Below are positions 4,538 to 39,289 of a DNA stretch of 64,000 nt, piece by piece. The number at the start of each line of letters is the position of its first letter. Position 1 is the stretch's first letter. The notes beneath the pieces were generated by a model that saw only the letters and a list, made by a program, of their open reading frames with translations, made no database searches and was not told where the DNA came from. A program made the translations under genes and the position numbers. Origin of the DNA: a phage; the sequence record PZ386974.1; one strand, written 5' to 3'.

Positions 4538-6109
4538 ATGAAATTTAATATCTTAAGTTTGTTTGCTCCATGGGCAAAAATGGACGAACGTGATTACAAA
4601 GACCAAGAAAAAGAAAATTTAGAATCTATCACCACACCAAAATTAGACGACGGCGCTAAAGAATACGAAGTATCTGAAAATGAAGCACAGCAAACATATA
4701 ATGCTATGTTTCAGAGAATGTTTGGTAGTCAAGAACCAGGGCTCAAATCAACCCGTGAATTAATCGATACGTATCGAAATTTGATGACGAACTATGAAGT
4801 GGATAACGCGGTCTCTGAAATAGTTTCTGATGCTATCGTGTATGAAGATGATACAGAAGTCGTTTCTATAAATTTAGACAACACAAAATTTAGTCCAAAT
4901 ATAAAATCAATGATGTTGGATGAATTTAACGAAGTGTTGAATCATTTATCTTTCCAACGTAAAGGTTCAGACCATTTTAGGCGTTGGTATGTAGATTCTC
5001 GAATTTTCTTCCATAAAATTATTGACCCTAAACGCCCTAAAGAAGGTATTAAAGAGCTTCGTCGTTTAGACCCACGTCAAGTTCAATATGTCCGTGAAGT
5101 TATTACAACCACTGAAGCCGGTGTTAAAATAGTCAAGGGTTATAAAGAATATTTCATTTATGACACATCACACGAATCTTATGCTTGTGATGGTCGCATA
5201 TATGAAGCTGGCACAAAAATAAAAATCCCTAAAGCCGCGATTGTTTACGCCCATTCTGGTTTAGTTGATTGTTGTGGTAAAAATATCATCGGTTATTTGC
5301 ATAGGGCTATTAAGCCAGCGAACCAATTAAAACTTCTTGAAGATGCTGTCGTAATTTATCGTATTACTCGTGCTCCCGATCGTCGTGTATGGTACGTTGA
5401 TACAGGTAATATGCCTTCAAGAAAAGCAGCAGAACATATGCAACATGTTATGAATACGATGAAAAACCGTATTGCATATGATGCTACTACAGGCAAGATT
5501 AAAAACCAGCAGCATATTATGTCGATGACCGAAGATTATTGGTTACAACGACGTGATGGTAAAGCAGTAACAGAAGTTGACACATTACCGGGTGCAGATA
5601 ATACCGGAAATATGGAAGATGTACGTTGGTTCCGTAATGCGCTTTATATGGCTTTACGTATTCCTATTACCCGTATTCCAAGTGACCAAGGTGGTATACA
5701 GTTTGATGCTGGTACTTCTATTACACGAGATGAATTGTCATTTGGTAAATTTATTCGTGAGCTGCAACATAAATTTGAAGAGATATTCCTAGACCCGCTT
5801 AAAACTAATTTAATTCTTAAAGGAATTATTACAGAAGATGAGTGGAATGATGAAATAAATAATATTAAGATAAAATTTCATCGGGATAGTTATTTCTCGG
5901 AATTAAAGGATGCTGAGATTCTGGAGCGTCGCATTAATATGCTTCAGATGGCCGAACCATTTATTGGTAAATATATTTCTCACAGAACAGCTATGAAAGA
6001 TATTCTTCAGATGTCTGACGAGGAAATTGAACAAGAGGCTAAGCAAATTGAAGAAGAGTCGAAAGAGGCTCGTTTCCAAGACCCCGACCAAGAACAAGAG
6101 GATTTTTAA
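4538..6109 (+). CDS. 20: portal vertex protein gp20
   Basis: 523-aa ORF; T4 gp20 length and position downstream of gene 19. Confidence 0.93.
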
Positions 6110-35232: not shown

Positions 35233-35541
35233 TTACATAAGAAGCAAACGTTCTACTGGAGTACCATCAACCGAAATTACTTTATCAAGGCGGAAAGAAC
35301 GCCACTGACCTAACTCGGTATCGAATGCTCGAACTGATTCACGAGGTTCAGAACGAACTTCTGTTGATGGGTTACTATTTTCATATTTGACTTCAAGTTC
35401 ATCGCGGGAGGCAAACATCGTACGAACATCACCGTTAGCCTTTTCAAATACAACACAATGAACGCCTACAGACAGAATAGTTTTAATACGTTCACGAAGA
35501 ACCATAGTTTCTCGTTCAGTTAAAATCATATTATTCACCAC
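35233..35541 (-). CDS. hypothetical protein
   Basis: 102-aa ORF between cd and gene 31. Confidence 0.5.
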   Translation of the reverse strand: MVNNMILTERETMVLRERIKTILSVGVHCVVFEKANGDVRTMFASRDELEVKYENSNPSTEVRSEPRESVRAFDTELGQWRSFRLDKVISVDGTPVERLLLM

Positions 35542-36112
35542 AAAAGTTTCGGATTTGTTCCCAATTCAGAGAACGAAGATTATTACGAGAGTACTGAATT
35601 ACTTCAATACCGGCTTGTTTTAGAATTTCGGCCCAATTTTCAGGAGATCTGTCATATAATTCCGCGTATACAACCTTTTTAATACCTGACTGCGTAATAG
35701 CTTTAGTGCAATCAGGACACGGAGAAAGCGTAGTATATAACGTAGCACCTTCAATAGAATTACCTTTACGAGCTGCAAACAAAATTGCGTTCAGTTCCGC
35801 ATGGATTTCGTTATTAGCAGACCATGCACTATGAGCGGCCCGATGTTCTTTAGCCAAAACAAAATTATCCACCCGTCCAAATGCTGTAGTGCCTTCTTTA
35901 TGCCCAGCAACGATGACCGGGCTTGGTTTATTCTTCAACCAACCGTTTTCGGATGCATGTTCGCAACAGTTTGTACCACCTGAAGGAGAGCCATTATAAC
36001 CTGTAGAAATAATGCGTCCATCCTTTTCAATGACGGCACCAACTTTCCATGAACAACATTTTGATTCTTGAGAAATCAGATATGCAATCTGAAGGTATGT
36101 GCTAGCTTTCAT
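35531..36112 (-). CDS. cd: dCMP deaminase
   Basis: 193 aa; zinc-binding CDA motifs (HAE..., PCPDC); T4 Cd length. Confidence 0.93.
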   Translation of the reverse strand: MKASTYLQIAYLISQESKCCSWKVGAVIEKDGRIISTGYNGSPSGGTNCCEHASENGWLKNKPSPVIVAGHKEGTTAFGRVDNFVLAKEHRAAHSAWSANNEIHAELNAILFAARKGNSIEGATLYTTLSPCPDCTKAITQSGIKKVVYAELYDRSPENWAEILKQAGIEVIQYSRNNLRSLNWEQIRNFCGE

Positions 36113-37104
36113 TATTGAACCTTATTAATATAAGTTAACAGCTCTTTAGTTTGTTCCCAACTGATGCACGCATCGGTAACGGAAACGCCATAGGACATAT
36201 TATCAGAAATTTTTTGATTTCCTTCATGTAGGAATGATTCTATCATAATTCCTTTGACCAAATCATTAGCTGCTAAATTTTTACCAATACCAATTTGATT
36301 GCTATAATGCCCATCAGCGTTTGCATGGCTACAGTCAACCATTACATAATGATTCAGACCTACTGCCCTTGCTTTGTTAGAAGCTTCTTGAATATCAGAA
36401 GAATGATAGTTCGGGCCGTTGGTCCCACCACGCAATACGATATGCGTATTCTGATTACCTTCAGCTTCAACAATGCCTACAGTACCATCGACGTCCATAC
36501 CCATATACCGATGAGGCCAGGCGGCACTATACATCGCGTCTGTAGCTACTTTAATAGAACCATTGGTTGCGTTCTTGAAGCCTACGCACATCGGTAGACC
36601 TGAAGCAATTTCACGATGTGTCTGACTTTCAGTCGTACGGGCGCCAATAGCAACCCATGAGAAAATACCAGAAAGATACTTAATCGTGAATGGGTCTAAT
36701 ACTTCAGTTGCTAATGGAAGTCCCATACGTAGAAGTTTACGACACAATGTTCGTGCAACTATAAGACCGTGGTTCATATCAAAACTTCCGTCAAGATATG
36801 GATCATTTACAAGACCTTTCCAACCTACGGTAGTTCGAGGCTTTTCAAAATAAACGCGCATCACTAACAGAACATTAGGAAGACGAGTTTGAAGTTCGGC
36901 CAGACGTTTGCCGTATTCAACAGCAGCAATAGGGTCATGAATTGAACAAGGACCTACAACAATAAGTTTGCGTGGGTCTTCACCGTTCATAATCGAATTA
37001 ACTTGTTCGCGATGAGAAGCCACTTGTGATGCGTAAGCTTCCGACAAAGGAATAATCTCAGCCAGTTCTTTTGGAGAAATAAGTTTTCCGACGACAGGTA
37101 ACAT
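36112..37104 (-). CDS. class I 3-deoxy-D-arabino-heptulosonate-7-phosphate (DAHP) synthase
   Basis: 330 aa; full-length similarity by recall to E. coli AroG/AroF/AroH incl. VVGPCSIHD, KPRTTVGWKGL, IGARTTESQ, DCSHAN, ESFLHEGNQ, TDACISW; stop overlaps cd start (TAATG). Confidence 0.9.
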   Translation of the reverse strand: MLPVVGKLISPKELAEIIPLSEAYASQVASHREQVNSIMNGEDPRKLIVVGPCSIHDPIAAVEYGKRLAELQTRLPNVLLVMRVYFEKPRTTVGWKGLVNDPYLDGSFDMNHGLIVARTLCRKLLRMGLPLATEVLDPFTIKYLSGIFSWVAIGARTTESQTHREIASGLPMCVGFKNATNGSIKVATDAMYSAAWPHRYMGMDVDGTVGIVEAEGNQNTHIVLRGGTNGPNYHSSDIQEASNKARAVGLNHYVMVDCSHANADGHYSNQIGIGKNLAANDLVKGIMIESFLHEGNQKISDNMSYGVSVTDACISWEQTKELLTYINKVQ

Positions 37105-37225
37105 AACAATCCTTAGGAGATATAAACAGATTCTGATTCAACAATACCTTTAACCGGACCACGCCAGGCTAAGTTGGTAGTGCTCAGATTTATGACCATT
37201 CTCGATAGTAATGAGATAGCTCTCA

Positions 37226-37462
37226 TTATAGTGTTCCATATACTCGAGTTGCTTCAACAAGACCATCACTGCCTAATTTAAGGCTAGTAATCTGGCCACC
37301 ATCTTTAGGATTAACGATTATGAGAAAAGAACGTGGAGATTCTTGAATAACTCGTAATGTTGCATCCTGGAAACGTTCAGACACTTTATTGATGAGTGCT
37401 TGAGCAAATTCTTTTACTTTAATCTGAAATTCGTGCACTGTAATTGGGTTTTCACTTAGCAT
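37226..37462 (-). CDS. hypothetical protein
   Basis: 78-aa ORF with GAGGAAA RBS and early promoter upstream. Confidence 0.55.
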   Translation of the reverse strand: MLSENPITVHEFQIKVKEFAQALINKVSERFQDATLRVIQESPRSFLIIVNPKDGGQITSLKLGSDGLVEATRVYGTL

Positions 37463-37491
37463 TCTGTTTTCCTCATTGTGTTGGTAGAGTT

Positions 37492-37521
37492 ATAGTATCA
37501 CAACTCTACCATGTTGTAAAC
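37492..37521 (-). promoter_or_regulatory. T4 early-type promoter (GTTTACA-N17-TACTAT)
   Basis: minus strand GTTTACA, 17-nt spacer, TACTAT upstream of ORF 37226-37462 and DAHP synthase. Confidence 0.45.
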
Positions 37522-37523
37522 CA

Positions 37524-37799
37524 TTAAATTGCTTTGCATTCAATTTTTTGTGTACCGAAATTGATATCACATTGGATAACTAAATCGCCGTCAAGATCAA
37601 ATACCACGATGACGTGTGCAGACCCAGGGAGAAGAGTAATAGCAATAGAATCTACTTGGTCTGGGAGCAAAGCATTGAGTACATGAGTTAGTTGAGCATG
37701 AACTCTGAGTTCGGCTGCATTATCAAGCACTTCAAACATATTATTAGCAATAATCTGACTGAAGACTACCTTTACAATTTCAGAATAAGTTGGGAACAT
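37524..37799 (-). CDS. hypothetical protein
   Basis: 91-aa ORF. Confidence 0.5.
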   Translation of the reverse strand: MFPTYSEIVKVVFSQIIANNMFEVLDNAAELRVHAQLTHVLNALLPDQVDSIAITLLPGSAHVIVVFDLDGDLVIQCDINFGTQKIECKAI

Positions 37800-37806
37800 A
37801 ATTACC

Positions 37807-38031
37807 TCAGTGTACAGTATTTACTTTAACTCGAACAACAAATCGCTCGGTCGGTTCACCTACAGGAACAAACTCTACATGATATTCGCCTTTGTAACGA
37901 GTATTCAGATCATTACGAATTCCTGCGAGTTTGTTGATTAATGTAGGACTCATATTAAGTCCCACTAGTTTACGAAGCATTTTGTATGCTTCATCTTCGA
38001 TTTCATGATGTTTATCGTACATAGTTTTCAT
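37807..38031 (-). CDS. hypothetical protein
   Basis: 74-aa ORF. Confidence 0.5.
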   Translation of the reverse strand: MKTMYDKHHEIEDEAYKMLRKLVGLNMSPTLINKLAGIRNDLNTRYKGEYHVEFVPVGEPTERFVVRVKVNTVH

Positions 38032-38202
38032 TTAACCATTCAATTGCCTGGTCGACGTTATCAAATATACCGCCGTCCAACCATTCTTCATGTTCATAGT
38101 CCAGCACATCAATACCGAACCGTCCATTTACTAAAGGCCATACTACAAACAAATATTCTTTATGCTGTTCGATGACCTCAATCACTTCATATAATCGTTT
38201 CA

Positions 38203-38203
<1 letters not shown>
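38012..38203 (-). CDS. hypothetical protein
   Basis: 63-aa acidic ORF. Confidence 0.45.

Positions 38204-39289
<1,086 letters not shown>

What the first reader, a model, noticed from the sequence alone, without database searches (positions are those of the whole stretch)
36112..37104. Phage-encoded class I DAHP synthase inserted between pseT and cd
A 330-aa ORF aligns along its whole length (by recall) with E. coli AroG-type DAHP synthase, the committed step of the shikimate pathway. Metal and PEP ligands look conserved (Cys in VVGPCSIHD, KPRTT, His in DCSHAN, Glu in ESFLHEGNQ, Asp in TDACISW), so it is probably active. Its stop overlaps the cd start (TAATG) and it sits in an early transcription unit (promoter 37492-37521) among nucleotide-metabolism genes. 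As far as I recall, canonical T4 carries only small cd.x ORFs here. Hypothesis: an auxiliary metabolic gene raising chorismate flux (aromatic amino acids, or pABA/folate to feed phage td/frd) or bypassing host feedback inhibition.
Basis: partly seen in the sequence, partly recalled or inferred. Interest (0 to 1): 0.75.

Follow-up and report, generated by a model that had tools for sequence, protein, structure and literature searches.

The report
Phage DAHP synthase, feedback site remodelled
This T4-like coliphage carries an intact copy of the enzyme that opens the aromatic amino acid pathway; the gene is already annotated in about 190 related phage genomes, but its amino-acid feedback site looks rewired, so it is probably always on.

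Summary
A 330-aa ORF at 36112..37104 (minus strand) is a full-length type I-alpha DAHP synthase. It scores 428 bits against TIGR00034 (cut-off 173), and an AlphaFold model matches solved DAHP synthases with TM 0.95. All metal, PEP and E4P ligands are invariant. Its stop overlaps the cd start.

The window is a Mosigvirus. The gene is not new. Identical proteins are annotated in many GenBank phages, it forms PHROG 5045 (auxiliary metabolic gene), and two genome papers mention it. I found no functional study.

What I add:
- The T4-like phage copies form one clade (100/100 bootstrap), at most 53% identical to any cellular enzyme.
- The gene has phage-like GC3 and is under purifying selection (dN/dS about 0.15).
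- It always lies between cd.2 and cd.
- The clade lacks the N-terminal lid and has changed the residues that hold the inhibitor in AroG/AroF: P150I, Q151K, D155G, S180P, F209Y.
- An unrelated Aeromonas phage lineage lost the same residues independently.

Most likely this is a feedback-insensitive DAHP synthase. It is accessory, because RB69 lacks it. Interest is modest: a known gene with a testable new detail.

The parts
36112..37104 (-). DAHP synthase CDS (330 aa, type I-alpha). Catalytic residues in the phage protein's own numbering: Cys53, His260, Glu289, Asp311, Arg83, Lys88-Pro-Arg-Thr-Thr92, Arg156, Lys177, Arg225. Remodelled inhibitor-site residues: Ile141 and Lys142 (codons at 36684..36679), Gly146, Pro171, Tyr200, Ala214.
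37110..37114 (-). Shine-Dalgarno AAGGA, 5 nt upstream of the DAHP synthase ATG
   Evidence: read directly from the sequence
37113..37226 (-). 37-aa ORF that fills the spacer between cd.2 and the DAHP synthase. Its ATG overlaps the cd.2 stop (TAATG). Function unknown.
   Evidence: a corresponding small CDS is annotated in phage NRG-P0074; no similarity to cd.1
37226..37462 (-). cd.2 homologue (78 aa, DUF7320), the first gene of the presumed transcription unit
   Evidence: 71% identical to RB32 cd.2; Pfam DUF7320
37492..37520 (-). Sigma-70 / T4-early-type promoter-like site: (G)TTTACA, 17 nt, TACTAT, with TG upstream of the -10 element
   Evidence: a consensus match only, and the count is not above shuffles; nearly identical in RB32 at the same cd.3/cd.2 junction
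37482..37511 (-). 13-bp stem, 4-nt loop hairpin overlapping the -10 element. It would form in read-through RNA coming from cd.3.
   Evidence: -17.2 kcal/mol, z -3.5; the stem is conserved in RB32
35531..36112 (-). cd, dCMP deaminase. Its start overlaps the DAHP synthase stop by one base.
38203..39102 (-). pseT, polynucleotide kinase/phosphatase, the upstream landmark of the locus

Best explanation
The ORF encodes a catalytically competent type I-alpha DAHP synthase (PEP + erythrose-4-phosphate -> DAHP + Pi, metal-dependent). A T4-like phage lineage acquired it long ago and has kept it as an accessory gene between cd.2 and cd.

It is probably transcribed with cd.2 and cd from an early-type promoter.

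The phage enzyme lacks the N-terminal lid. It has also replaced the residues that bind the backbone of the inhibitory amino acid in AroG and AroF. I therefore infer that Phe, Tyr and Trp do not shut it down. If so, carbon keeps entering the shikimate pathway during infection, whatever the aromatic amino acid pools are and although host genes are no longer expressed.

Shown here: enzyme family, fold, intact active site, purifying selection, one phage clade, conserved position, remodelled inhibitor site.
Inferred: catalytic activity, feedback insensitivity, expression timing.
Unknown: which downstream product matters to the phage (aromatic amino acids, folate via pABA, or others).
For: Identity of the enzyme:
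- TIGR00034 equivalog, 427.7 bits against a cut-off of 173; Pfam E 5e-75.
- AlphaFold2 model with pLDDT 92.4 and pTM 0.91; Foldseek TM 0.95 and rmsd 1.9 A to N. meningitidis and E. coli DAHP synthases.
- Ten catalytic residues are invariant in all 31 phage-clade and 98 cellular sequences.

Kept by selection in phages:
- dN/dS is 0.10-0.25. The best pair is Entb_45 against PEi20, with dS 0.71 and omega 0.145.
- GC3 is 0.30, like the neighbouring phage genes, against 0.50-0.57 for E. coli aroFGH.
- The phage clade is monophyletic in 100 of 100 NJ bootstraps, and its nearest cellular sequences are about 53% identical.
- The position is the same (cd.2 - DAHPS - [cd.1] - cd) in six genera and in two metagenomic T4-like contigs.

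Feedback site:
- The N-terminus is 8-10 residues shorter, so there is no equivalent of AroG D6/D7 or AroF Ile11.
- AroG P150->I, Q151->K, D155->G, S180->P and F209->Y in essentially all phage-clade members. The 98 cellular homologues keep P (93%), Q (100%), D (97%), S (99%) and F (99%).
- An unbiased scan found only 7 positions where a residue conserved at 90% or more in cells is replaced clade-wide. Four of them fall in the 9-residue inhibitor site listed in PMC9529685 (hypergeometric P about 1e-5).
- Literature: AroG P150L is fully feedback-resistant and S180F and F209A/S are resistant. Q151/Q152 and S180/S181 bind the inhibitor main chain, and D155 stabilises the site (PMC9529685). AroF becomes Tyr-insensitive on replacement of Gln152 or deletion of Ile11 (PMC5791370).
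- Independent replicate: the Aeromonas phage HJ05 lineage has a separately acquired DAHP synthase (at most 46% identical to any cellular sequence, 36% to this one). It keeps all catalytic residues but has A150, H/S151, P155, P180 and V209.
Against: - No enzyme assay, complementation or expression data exist for any phage copy that I could find.
- The beta6a/beta6b regulatory hairpin, most of the N-terminal extension and several hydrophobic pocket residues (L179, V221, and Gly211 as in AroF) are retained, so some ligand could still bind.
- The remodelled positions are as conserved within the phage clade as the originals are in cells (0.91 against a background of 0.75, permutation p 0.02). That fits a fixed new function or a structural lock at least as well as simple loss.
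- The substitutions are not the same amino acids as the laboratory resistance mutations.
- RB69, in the same genus, lacks the gene, so any benefit is conditional.
- The promoter call is only a consensus match.
Confidence: 0.6

Rival explanations
1. It is an ordinary, still feedback-regulated extra copy of DAHP synthase (for example Tyr-sensitive like AroF). It merely replaces host enzyme that is no longer made after host shut-off.
For: - It is closest to AroF by score.
- It has Gly at AroG position 211 and Pro at 147, as AroF does.
- The regulatory beta-hairpin strands are predicted.
- Many GenBank records name it 'aroF, Tyr-sensitive'.
- DAHP synthase activity is reported to fall in stationary phase (PMC4174253), so an extra copy alone could help.
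Against: - Gln151, Ser180, Asp155, Pro150 and Phe209 are replaced, and the N-terminal lid is missing. These are the positions where single changes abolish inhibition in AroG or AroF.
- The isozyme-specific NCBIfam models fail their cut-offs: AroG 363 against 568, AroH 386 against 463.
- The 'Tyr-sensitive' names are automatic transfers, not tests.
Confidence: 0.15
2. Its main role is as a sink, not a supplier. By irreversibly consuming erythrose-4-phosphate (and PEP), it pulls transketolase flux from fructose-6-P and glyceraldehyde-3-P towards pentose phosphates. Those are needed for nucleotides and, in these phages, for arabinosylating every cytosine.
For: - The gene sits among nucleotide-metabolism genes: cd, pseT, and nearby nrdAB, td and frd.
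- Five of the six DAHPS-positive T4-like genera also carry the arabinose-5-phosphate isomerase of the arabinosyl-5-hydroxycytosine pathway. That pathway is proposed to draw ribulose-5-P from the pentose phosphate pathway (bioRxiv 10.1101/2025.06.16.659550; PMC13390438).
- A feedback-insensitive enzyme is what a sink would need.
Against: - RB69 arabinosylates its DNA but lacks the DAHP synthase.
- The Klebsiella Marfavirus phages have the synthase, but judging from the organism counts they have no detectable isomerase.
- The Acinetobacter and Yersinia T4-like phages have the isomerase without the synthase.
- The co-occurrence may simply reflect shared ancestry.
- Draining E4P wastes carbon that transaldolase would otherwise turn into more pentose.
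- There are no flux data.
Confidence: 0.1
3. The allosteric pocket was not lost but re-tuned to a different effector. The new Lys151 and the loss of Asp155 would favour an anionic metabolite such as chorismate, prephenate or a nucleotide. That would tie pathway entry to a phage-relevant signal.
For: - The replaced residues are fixed across genera that are only 53-77% identical overall. Site conservation is 0.91 against a background of 0.75, p 0.02.
- The segment corresponding to AroG 143-183 is 97% conserved in the phage clade.
- The pocket-forming hairpin is retained.
Against: - No ligand is identified.
- The same segment also borders the active site (G163, A164, R165), which could explain the conservation.
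- The convergent HJ05 lineage uses different replacement residues (A/H/P/P/V). That fits loss better than a shared new specificity.
Confidence: 0.1
4. It is a decaying passenger gene or frameshifted remnant with no function in the phage.
For: It is absent from RB69 and from all Tequatrovirus examined, so it is dispensable in the laboratory.
Against: - The ORF is full-length and intact in every member.
- All catalytic residues are invariant.
- dN/dS is about 0.15.
- It is retained in about 190 deposited genomes across at least six genera.
Confidence: 0.03

Closest known systems
E. coli AroF (Tyr-sensitive DAHP synthase, PDB 6AGM/6AGL), with AroG (1KFL/1QR7) and AroH
   Same: - Same type I-alpha family and fold (TM 0.95).
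- 51%, 47% and 43% identity to AroF, AroG and AroH.
- Identical metal, PEP and E4P ligands.
- Gly at the Tyr/Phe-discriminating position 211, as in AroF.
   Different: - 20-26 residues shorter. It lacks the first 8-10 N-terminal residues, about 12 C-terminal residues and two short loops.
- The inhibitor-binding residues Pro150, Gln151, Asp155, Ser180 and Phe209 are replaced by Ile, Lys, Gly, Pro and Tyr.
- It is phage-encoded, with phage-like codon composition.
PHROG 5045 / GenBank 'phospho-2-dehydro-3-deoxyheptonate aldolase' of T4-like phages (Mosigvirus, Kanagawavirus, Winklervirus, Kagamiyamavirus, Bragavirus, Marfavirus)
   Same: - This ORF is a member: 606 bits, full length.
- It is 100% identical to proteins in deposited phages such as LF82-1, phiC120 and O157 typing phage 3.
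- The genomic position is the same.
   Different: Nothing structural differs. The family is annotated but, as far as I could find, functionally uncharacterised.
Laboratory feedback-resistant DAHP synthases (AroG P150L, D146N, S180F, F209A; AroF Q152I, P148L, delta-Ile11)
   Same: The changes fall at the same positions (150, 151/152, 180, 209, N-terminus) that abolish inhibition in engineered enzymes (PMC9529685, PMC5791370).
   Different: This is a natural variant carrying several changes at once, with different replacement residues, fixed over long evolutionary time. Resistance has not been measured.
DAHP synthase of Aeromonas phage HJ05 and relatives
   Same: Phage-encoded, with an intact active site. 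The same inhibitor-site positions are lost, including an identical Ser180->Pro.
   Different: - Only 36% identical to this protein, with a longer N-terminus (387 aa).
- The phage is an unrelated 79-kb type and the gene has a different neighbourhood, next to an Acb2/Tad1-like gene.
- This looks like an independent acquisition.

Membership tests
Type I-alpha DAHP synthase (AroF/G/H; TIGR00034, Pfam PF00793) | Score above the curated family cut-offs over the full length | tested here: met
   TIGR00034 scores 427.7 bits against 173.2. PRK12755 scores 455.1 against 343. PF00793 scores 252 against 25.5 and covers residues 36-323.
Type I-alpha DAHP synthase (AroF/G/H; TIGR00034, Pfam PF00793) | (beta/alpha)8 barrel with an N-terminal extension and the beta6a/beta6b hairpin insertion | tested here: met
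   AlphaFold2 model with pLDDT 92.4. Helices are predicted at 11-17 and 22-39 before the first barrel strand, and extra strands at 198-203 and 209-214. Foldseek gives TM 0.95 to 5dcb, 1kfl and 1gg1.
Type I-alpha DAHP synthase (AroF/G/H; TIGR00034, Pfam PF00793) | Metal ligands Cys61, His268, Glu302 and Asp326 (AroG numbering) | tested here: met
   Invariant in the window protein (Cys53, His260, Glu289, Asp311) and in all aligned homologues.
Type I-alpha DAHP synthase (AroF/G/H; TIGR00034, Pfam PF00793) | PEP and E4P binding residues (Arg92, the Lys97-Pro-Arg-Thr motif, Arg165, Lys186, Arg234) | tested here: met
   All invariant. The motif KPRTT is at residues 88-92, not the KANRS-type motif that I recall for KDO8P synthases.
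Type I-alpha DAHP synthase (AroF/G/H; TIGR00034, Pfam PF00793) | Catalysis of PEP + E4P -> DAHP | not testable with these tools
   Needs an enzyme assay or complementation of an aroF aroG aroH mutant.
Feedback-regulated isozymes AroG (Phe), AroF (Tyr), AroH (Trp) | Isozyme-specific profile score | tested here: not met
   The AroG equivalog NF006723 scores 363 against a cut-off of 568. The AroH model NF009396 scores 386 against 463. No AroF-specific model was returned.
Feedback-regulated isozymes AroG (Phe), AroF (Tyr), AroH (Trp) | Inhibitor-binding residues: Gln151, Ser180, Asp155, Pro150, Phe209, plus the N-terminal lid (AroG Asp6/Asp7, AroF Ile11) | tested here: not met
   These are replaced by Lys, Pro, Gly, Ile and Tyr, and the N-terminus is 8-10 residues shorter. 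This holds clade-wide. The residues are kept in 93-100% of 98 cellular homologues.
Feedback-regulated isozymes AroG (Phe), AroF (Tyr), AroH (Trp) | Inhibition by an aromatic amino acid | not testable with these tools
   Needs kinetics with and without Phe, Tyr and Trp.
Phage auxiliary metabolic gene family PHROG 5045 | Full-length profile match and residence in a phage genome | tested here: met
   605.9 bits, residues 1-330 against profile positions 8-337 of 341. The window is 97-99% identical to Mosigvirus genomes.
KDO8P synthase (the other branch of PF00793) | Best match to KdsA-type models | tested here: not met
   Only DAHP synthase models are returned by NCBIfam. All PDB sequence matches listed are DAHP synthases.

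The most novel reading that the evidence does not exclude
The phage enzyme is not just a deregulated copy. In this reading its conserved, re-built allosteric pocket responds to a different metabolite. Alternatively, the enzyme works mainly as an erythrose-4-phosphate/PEP sink that reroutes central carbon towards pentose phosphates. That would be functionally tied to the arabinosyl-5-hydroxycytosine DNA modification, with which it co-occurs in five of six genera.
Probability: 0.12. Interest if true: 0.6.

Novelty: already known. Interest (0 to 1): 0.35.

Why it matters
If the inference holds, T4-like phages carry a naturally feedback-insensitive first enzyme of the shikimate pathway, and an unrelated phage lineage arrived at the same solution independently. 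That would be a clear case of a virus overriding a host metabolic control point by editing an allosteric site while keeping the catalytic site intact.

It would also give metabolic engineers a naturally evolved, multi-site feedback-resistant DAHP synthase scaffold.

It raises a concrete question: which chorismate-derived product limits phage yield, and under what conditions? RB69 is a natural null for comparison.

As a genome annotation, though, the gene is ordinary and already recorded.

Tried and rejected
- Literature searches for a functional study of a phage DAHP synthase found only two genome-description papers that mention it.
- I asked whether the 37-aa ORF upstream is a remnant of cd.1. 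BLASTP found no alignment, so I rejected this.
- I asked whether the synthase is an obligate partner of the arabinosylation pathway. I rejected this as obligate: RB69 has the pathway without the synthase, Marfavirus apparently has the reverse, and the Acinetobacter T4-like phages have the isomerase only.
- The 'Acinetobacter phage MD-2021a' aroF hits turned out to be bacterial chromosome contigs (clpA, cobS, cobT and others). I discarded them as evidence of phage carriage.
- The 'Bacteriophage sp.' faecal scaffolds are unverified and unannotated, so I did not use them.
- A recent transfer from the host is rejected. Identity to E. coli AroF is only 51%, GC3 is phage-like and no cellular sister group appears.
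- The general promoter scan is not above chance. I therefore rely only on the conservation of that one site with RB32.
- I saw no TGCTT-type MotA box by eye in the 121-nt spacer, but I did not scan for it systematically.
Full report

Yes. The ORF listing reports a single ORF at 36112..37104 on the minus strand, with an ATG start, 330 aa and no interruptions. The stop TAA overlaps the ATG of the next ORF (35531..36112) as TAATG. An AAGGA ribosome-binding site lies 5 nt upstream of the ATG. The ATG is the first possible start codon after the upstream in-frame stop, so the short N-terminus is not an annotation artefact.

The flanking genes are:
- dCMP deaminase (cd), downstream
- cd.2 (37226..37462, 71% identical to RB32 cd.2)
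- cd.3-like (37524..37799)
- two small ORFs (37807..38031 and 38012..38203)
- pseT (38203..39102)

**2. What is it?**

- Pfam DAHP_synth_1, E 5e-75.
- NCBIfam equivalog TIGR00034 (aroFGH), 427.7 bits against a cut-off of 173, and PRK12755, 455 bits against 343.
- The best solved structure by sequence is E. coli AroF (6agm, E 5e-105), followed by N. meningitidis DAH7PS and AroG.
- An AlphaFold2 model built on a 40-sequence alignment has pLDDT 92.4 and pTM 0.91. It superposes on type I-alpha DAHP synthases with TM 0.95 and rmsd 1.9 A.

I aligned it with E. coli K-12 AroG, AroF and AroH, taken from the annotated chromosome. The four metal ligands (AroG C61, H268, E302, D326) and the PEP/E4P residues (R92, K97, R99, R165, K186, R234) are invariant. 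They are also invariant in all 31 phage-clade and 98 cellular sequences of a larger alignment. This is a type I-alpha DAHP synthase with an intact active site.

**3. Where does the window come from, and is the gene new?**

The region is 98-99% identical to many Mosigvirus genomes, such as moskry, JS09 and APCEc01.

tblastn finds the protein in 213 phage records:
- 140 at 95% identity or more (Mosigvirus), many of them 100% identical
- 47 at 60-80% (T4-like phages of Klebsiella, Serratia, Edwardsiella, Enterobacter and Escherichia EcS1)
- 26 below 60% (Proteus and Shigella Bragavirus, and others)

Most records already annotate it as phospho-2-dehydro-3-deoxyheptonate aldolase, DAHP synthase or aroF. 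It is PHROG 5045, filed under 'moron, auxiliary metabolic gene and host takeover' (606 bits). PMC11845039 lists the Kanagawavirus KLB31 copy as an auxiliary metabolic gene, with the same aromatic-amino-acid hypothesis. PMC8022965 notes the domain in phiC120. I found no functional study. The finding is therefore correct but already known at the annotation level.

**4. Evolution and genomic setting**

The gene has the same position in six genera: after the cd.2 homologue and before cd. The genera are Mosigvirus, Marfavirus, Bragavirus, Kanagawavirus, Kagamiyamavirus and Winklervirus.
- In EcS1 and X20 an ORF of about 112 aa lies between it and cd. The EcS1 copy is a cd.1 homologue.
- In Proteus phage PM2 two small ORFs lie between it and cd.
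- Mosigvirus lacks cd.1.

Two metagenomic members, P0020 and P0022, also sit in T4-like contexts. Tequatrovirus RB32 has cd.3, one extra ORF, cd.2, cd.1 and cd, with no synthase. RB69, a member of the same genus as the window, also lacks it: there cd.2 abuts cd directly. The gene is therefore accessory.

The phage sequences form one clade in 100 of 100 NJ bootstraps. The nearest cellular sequences are only about 53% identical and come from scattered phyla. [quoted passage not shown]

GC3 is 0.30, like cd and pseT, against 0.50-0.57 for E. coli aroFGH. dN/dS is 0.10-0.25, and the least saturated informative pair gives 0.145 at dS 0.71. Together these indicate an old acquisition maintained by purifying selection.

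**5. The part that goes beyond the annotation: the allosteric site**

The phage clade has 28-31 residues before AroG R40, against 37 or more in the cellular enzymes. It therefore lacks the segment that contains AroG D6/D7 and AroF Ile11.

I ran an unbiased scan for positions fixed in the phage clade (at least 90%) but nearly absent from cells (at most 5%). It gave 13 positions. At seven of them the cellular residue is itself at least 90% conserved:

| AroG position | Cellular residue | Phage-clade residue |
|---|---|---|
| 150 | P | I |
| 151 | Q | K |
| 155 | D | G |
| 156 | L | I |
| 180 | S | P |
| 209 | F | Y |
| 223 | T | A |

PMC9529685 lists the inhibitor site as AroG 147, 151, 155, 179, 180, 209, 211, 212 and 214 (converted from C. 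glutamicum AroF numbering). It states that:
- Q151/Q152 and S180/S181 bind the main chain of Phe or Tyr
- D155 stabilises the site
- P150L is completely feedback-resistant, and S180F and F209A/S are feedback-resistant

PMC5791370 records Tyr-insensitive AroF mutants from replacement of Pro148 or Gln152, or from deletion of Ile11.

Four of the seven strong clade-specific changes fall in that nine-residue site (hypergeometric P about 1e-5). A fifth, position 150, is a classic resistance position.

The Aeromonas phage HJ05 lineage provides an independent check. It is a 79-kb phage that is not T4-like. Its synthase is at most 46% identical to any cellular sequence and 36% identical to this one. 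It keeps every catalytic residue but has A150, H/S151, P155, P180 and V209.

Two phage lineages have thus separately dismantled the same regulatory contacts. I infer that the enzyme is insensitive to Phe, Tyr and Trp. This is an inference from sequence, not a measurement.

One caveat applies. The replaced residues are as conserved within the phage clade as the originals are in cells (0.91 against a background of 0.75, p 0.02). The site is therefore fixed rather than decaying. That could mean a structural lock, or a new ligand.

**6. Expression**

A TTTACA-17-TACTAT site with an upstream TG lies at 37520..37492, between cd.3 and cd.2. Such matches are not enriched in the region. However, this one is almost base-for-base conserved in RB32 at the same junction.

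From there the genes run cd.2, a 37-aa ORF, the synthase and cd, with overlapping or nearly abutting stops and starts. This suggests one transcription unit. Early timing is plausible but not shown.

**7. Function**

The best-supported mechanism is a deregulated DAHP synthase that keeps carbon flowing into the shikimate pathway during infection. Which product matters is unknown.

I considered a sink model, in which draining E4P and PEP favours pentose phosphates. Mosigvirus DNA carries arabosyl-5-hydroxycytosine — that is, arabinosyl-5-hydroxycytosine — whose proposed precursor is ribulose-5-P, made available by a phage arabinose-5-P isomerase. That isomerase co-occurs with the synthase in five of six genera. 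But the link is not obligate:
- RB69 has the modification without the synthase.
- Marfavirus seems to have the synthase without the isomerase.
- The Acinetobacter T4-like phages have only the isomerase.

The link is therefore possibly just phylogenetic.

**8. Verdict**

The remodelled, convergently lost feedback site is a modestly interesting and directly testable addition.

Noticed in passing
window 37482..37511 (minus strand): A stable 13-bp hairpin (-17.2 kcal/mol, z -3.5) overlaps the -10 element of the promoter-like site between cd.3 and cd.2. The stem is conserved in Tequatrovirus RB32. It could be an RNA processing or stability element, or a weak terminator, for read-through transcripts.
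   Followed up: partly
window 37113..37226 (minus strand): An unannotated-looking 37-aa ORF fills the 121-nt spacer between cd.2 and the DAHP synthase. Its ATG overlaps the cd.2 stop. A matching small CDS is annotated in phage NRG-P0074. It has no similarity to cd.1.
   Followed up: partly
L020 7964..8599 (RB69 gp55) and phage collection hits H159-H218: The arabinose-5-phosphate isomerase of the arabinosyl-5-hydroxycytosine pathway co-occurs with the DAHP synthase in Mosigvirus, Kanagawavirus, Kagamiyamavirus, Winklervirus and Bragavirus. It was not seen in the Klebsiella Marfavirus phages. It is present without the synthase in the Acinetobacter and Yersinia T4-like phages.
   Followed up: partly
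L021 6743..7503 (RB69): RB69, a Mosigvirus, lacks the DAHP synthase, and cd.2 abuts cd directly. This is a natural presence/absence polymorphism within the genus and a ready-made null for experiments.
   Followed up: yes
L005 3899..5062 and 5196..5546 (Aeromonas phage HJ05): An independently acquired phage DAHP synthase (387 aa) has the same inhibitor-site positions replaced. The next gene downstream encodes an Acb2/Tad1 hairpin-domain protein, an anti-CBASS/anti-Thoeris sponge family (Pfam E 8.5e-17).
   Followed up: partly
L017, L018 ('Acinetobacter phage MD-2021a' contigs): These records in the phage collection are plainly bacterial chromosome fragments (clpS, clpA, cobS, cobT, fadH). Their aroF genes are not phage genes.
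   Followed up: yes
window 36112..37104 and 35531..36112; GenBank records: Public annotations are inconsistent. The synthase is variously 'hypothetical protein', 'putative aldolase', 'AroG' or 'aroF, Tyr-sensitive'; the last is an unsupported specificity. The cd gene is sometimes called ribD or tadA. Cluster P0001 is named as an E. coli protein but sits on a 170,875-bp contig that is probably a phage genome.
   Followed up: no
window 35233..35541 (minus strand): The gene 31.1 homologue (102 aa, GTG start by ORF listing; phrog_1086) is labelled 'tail fiber protein' in some records. Only a weak secondary PHROG hit (phrog_10657, E 5e-9) supports that name.
   Followed up: no
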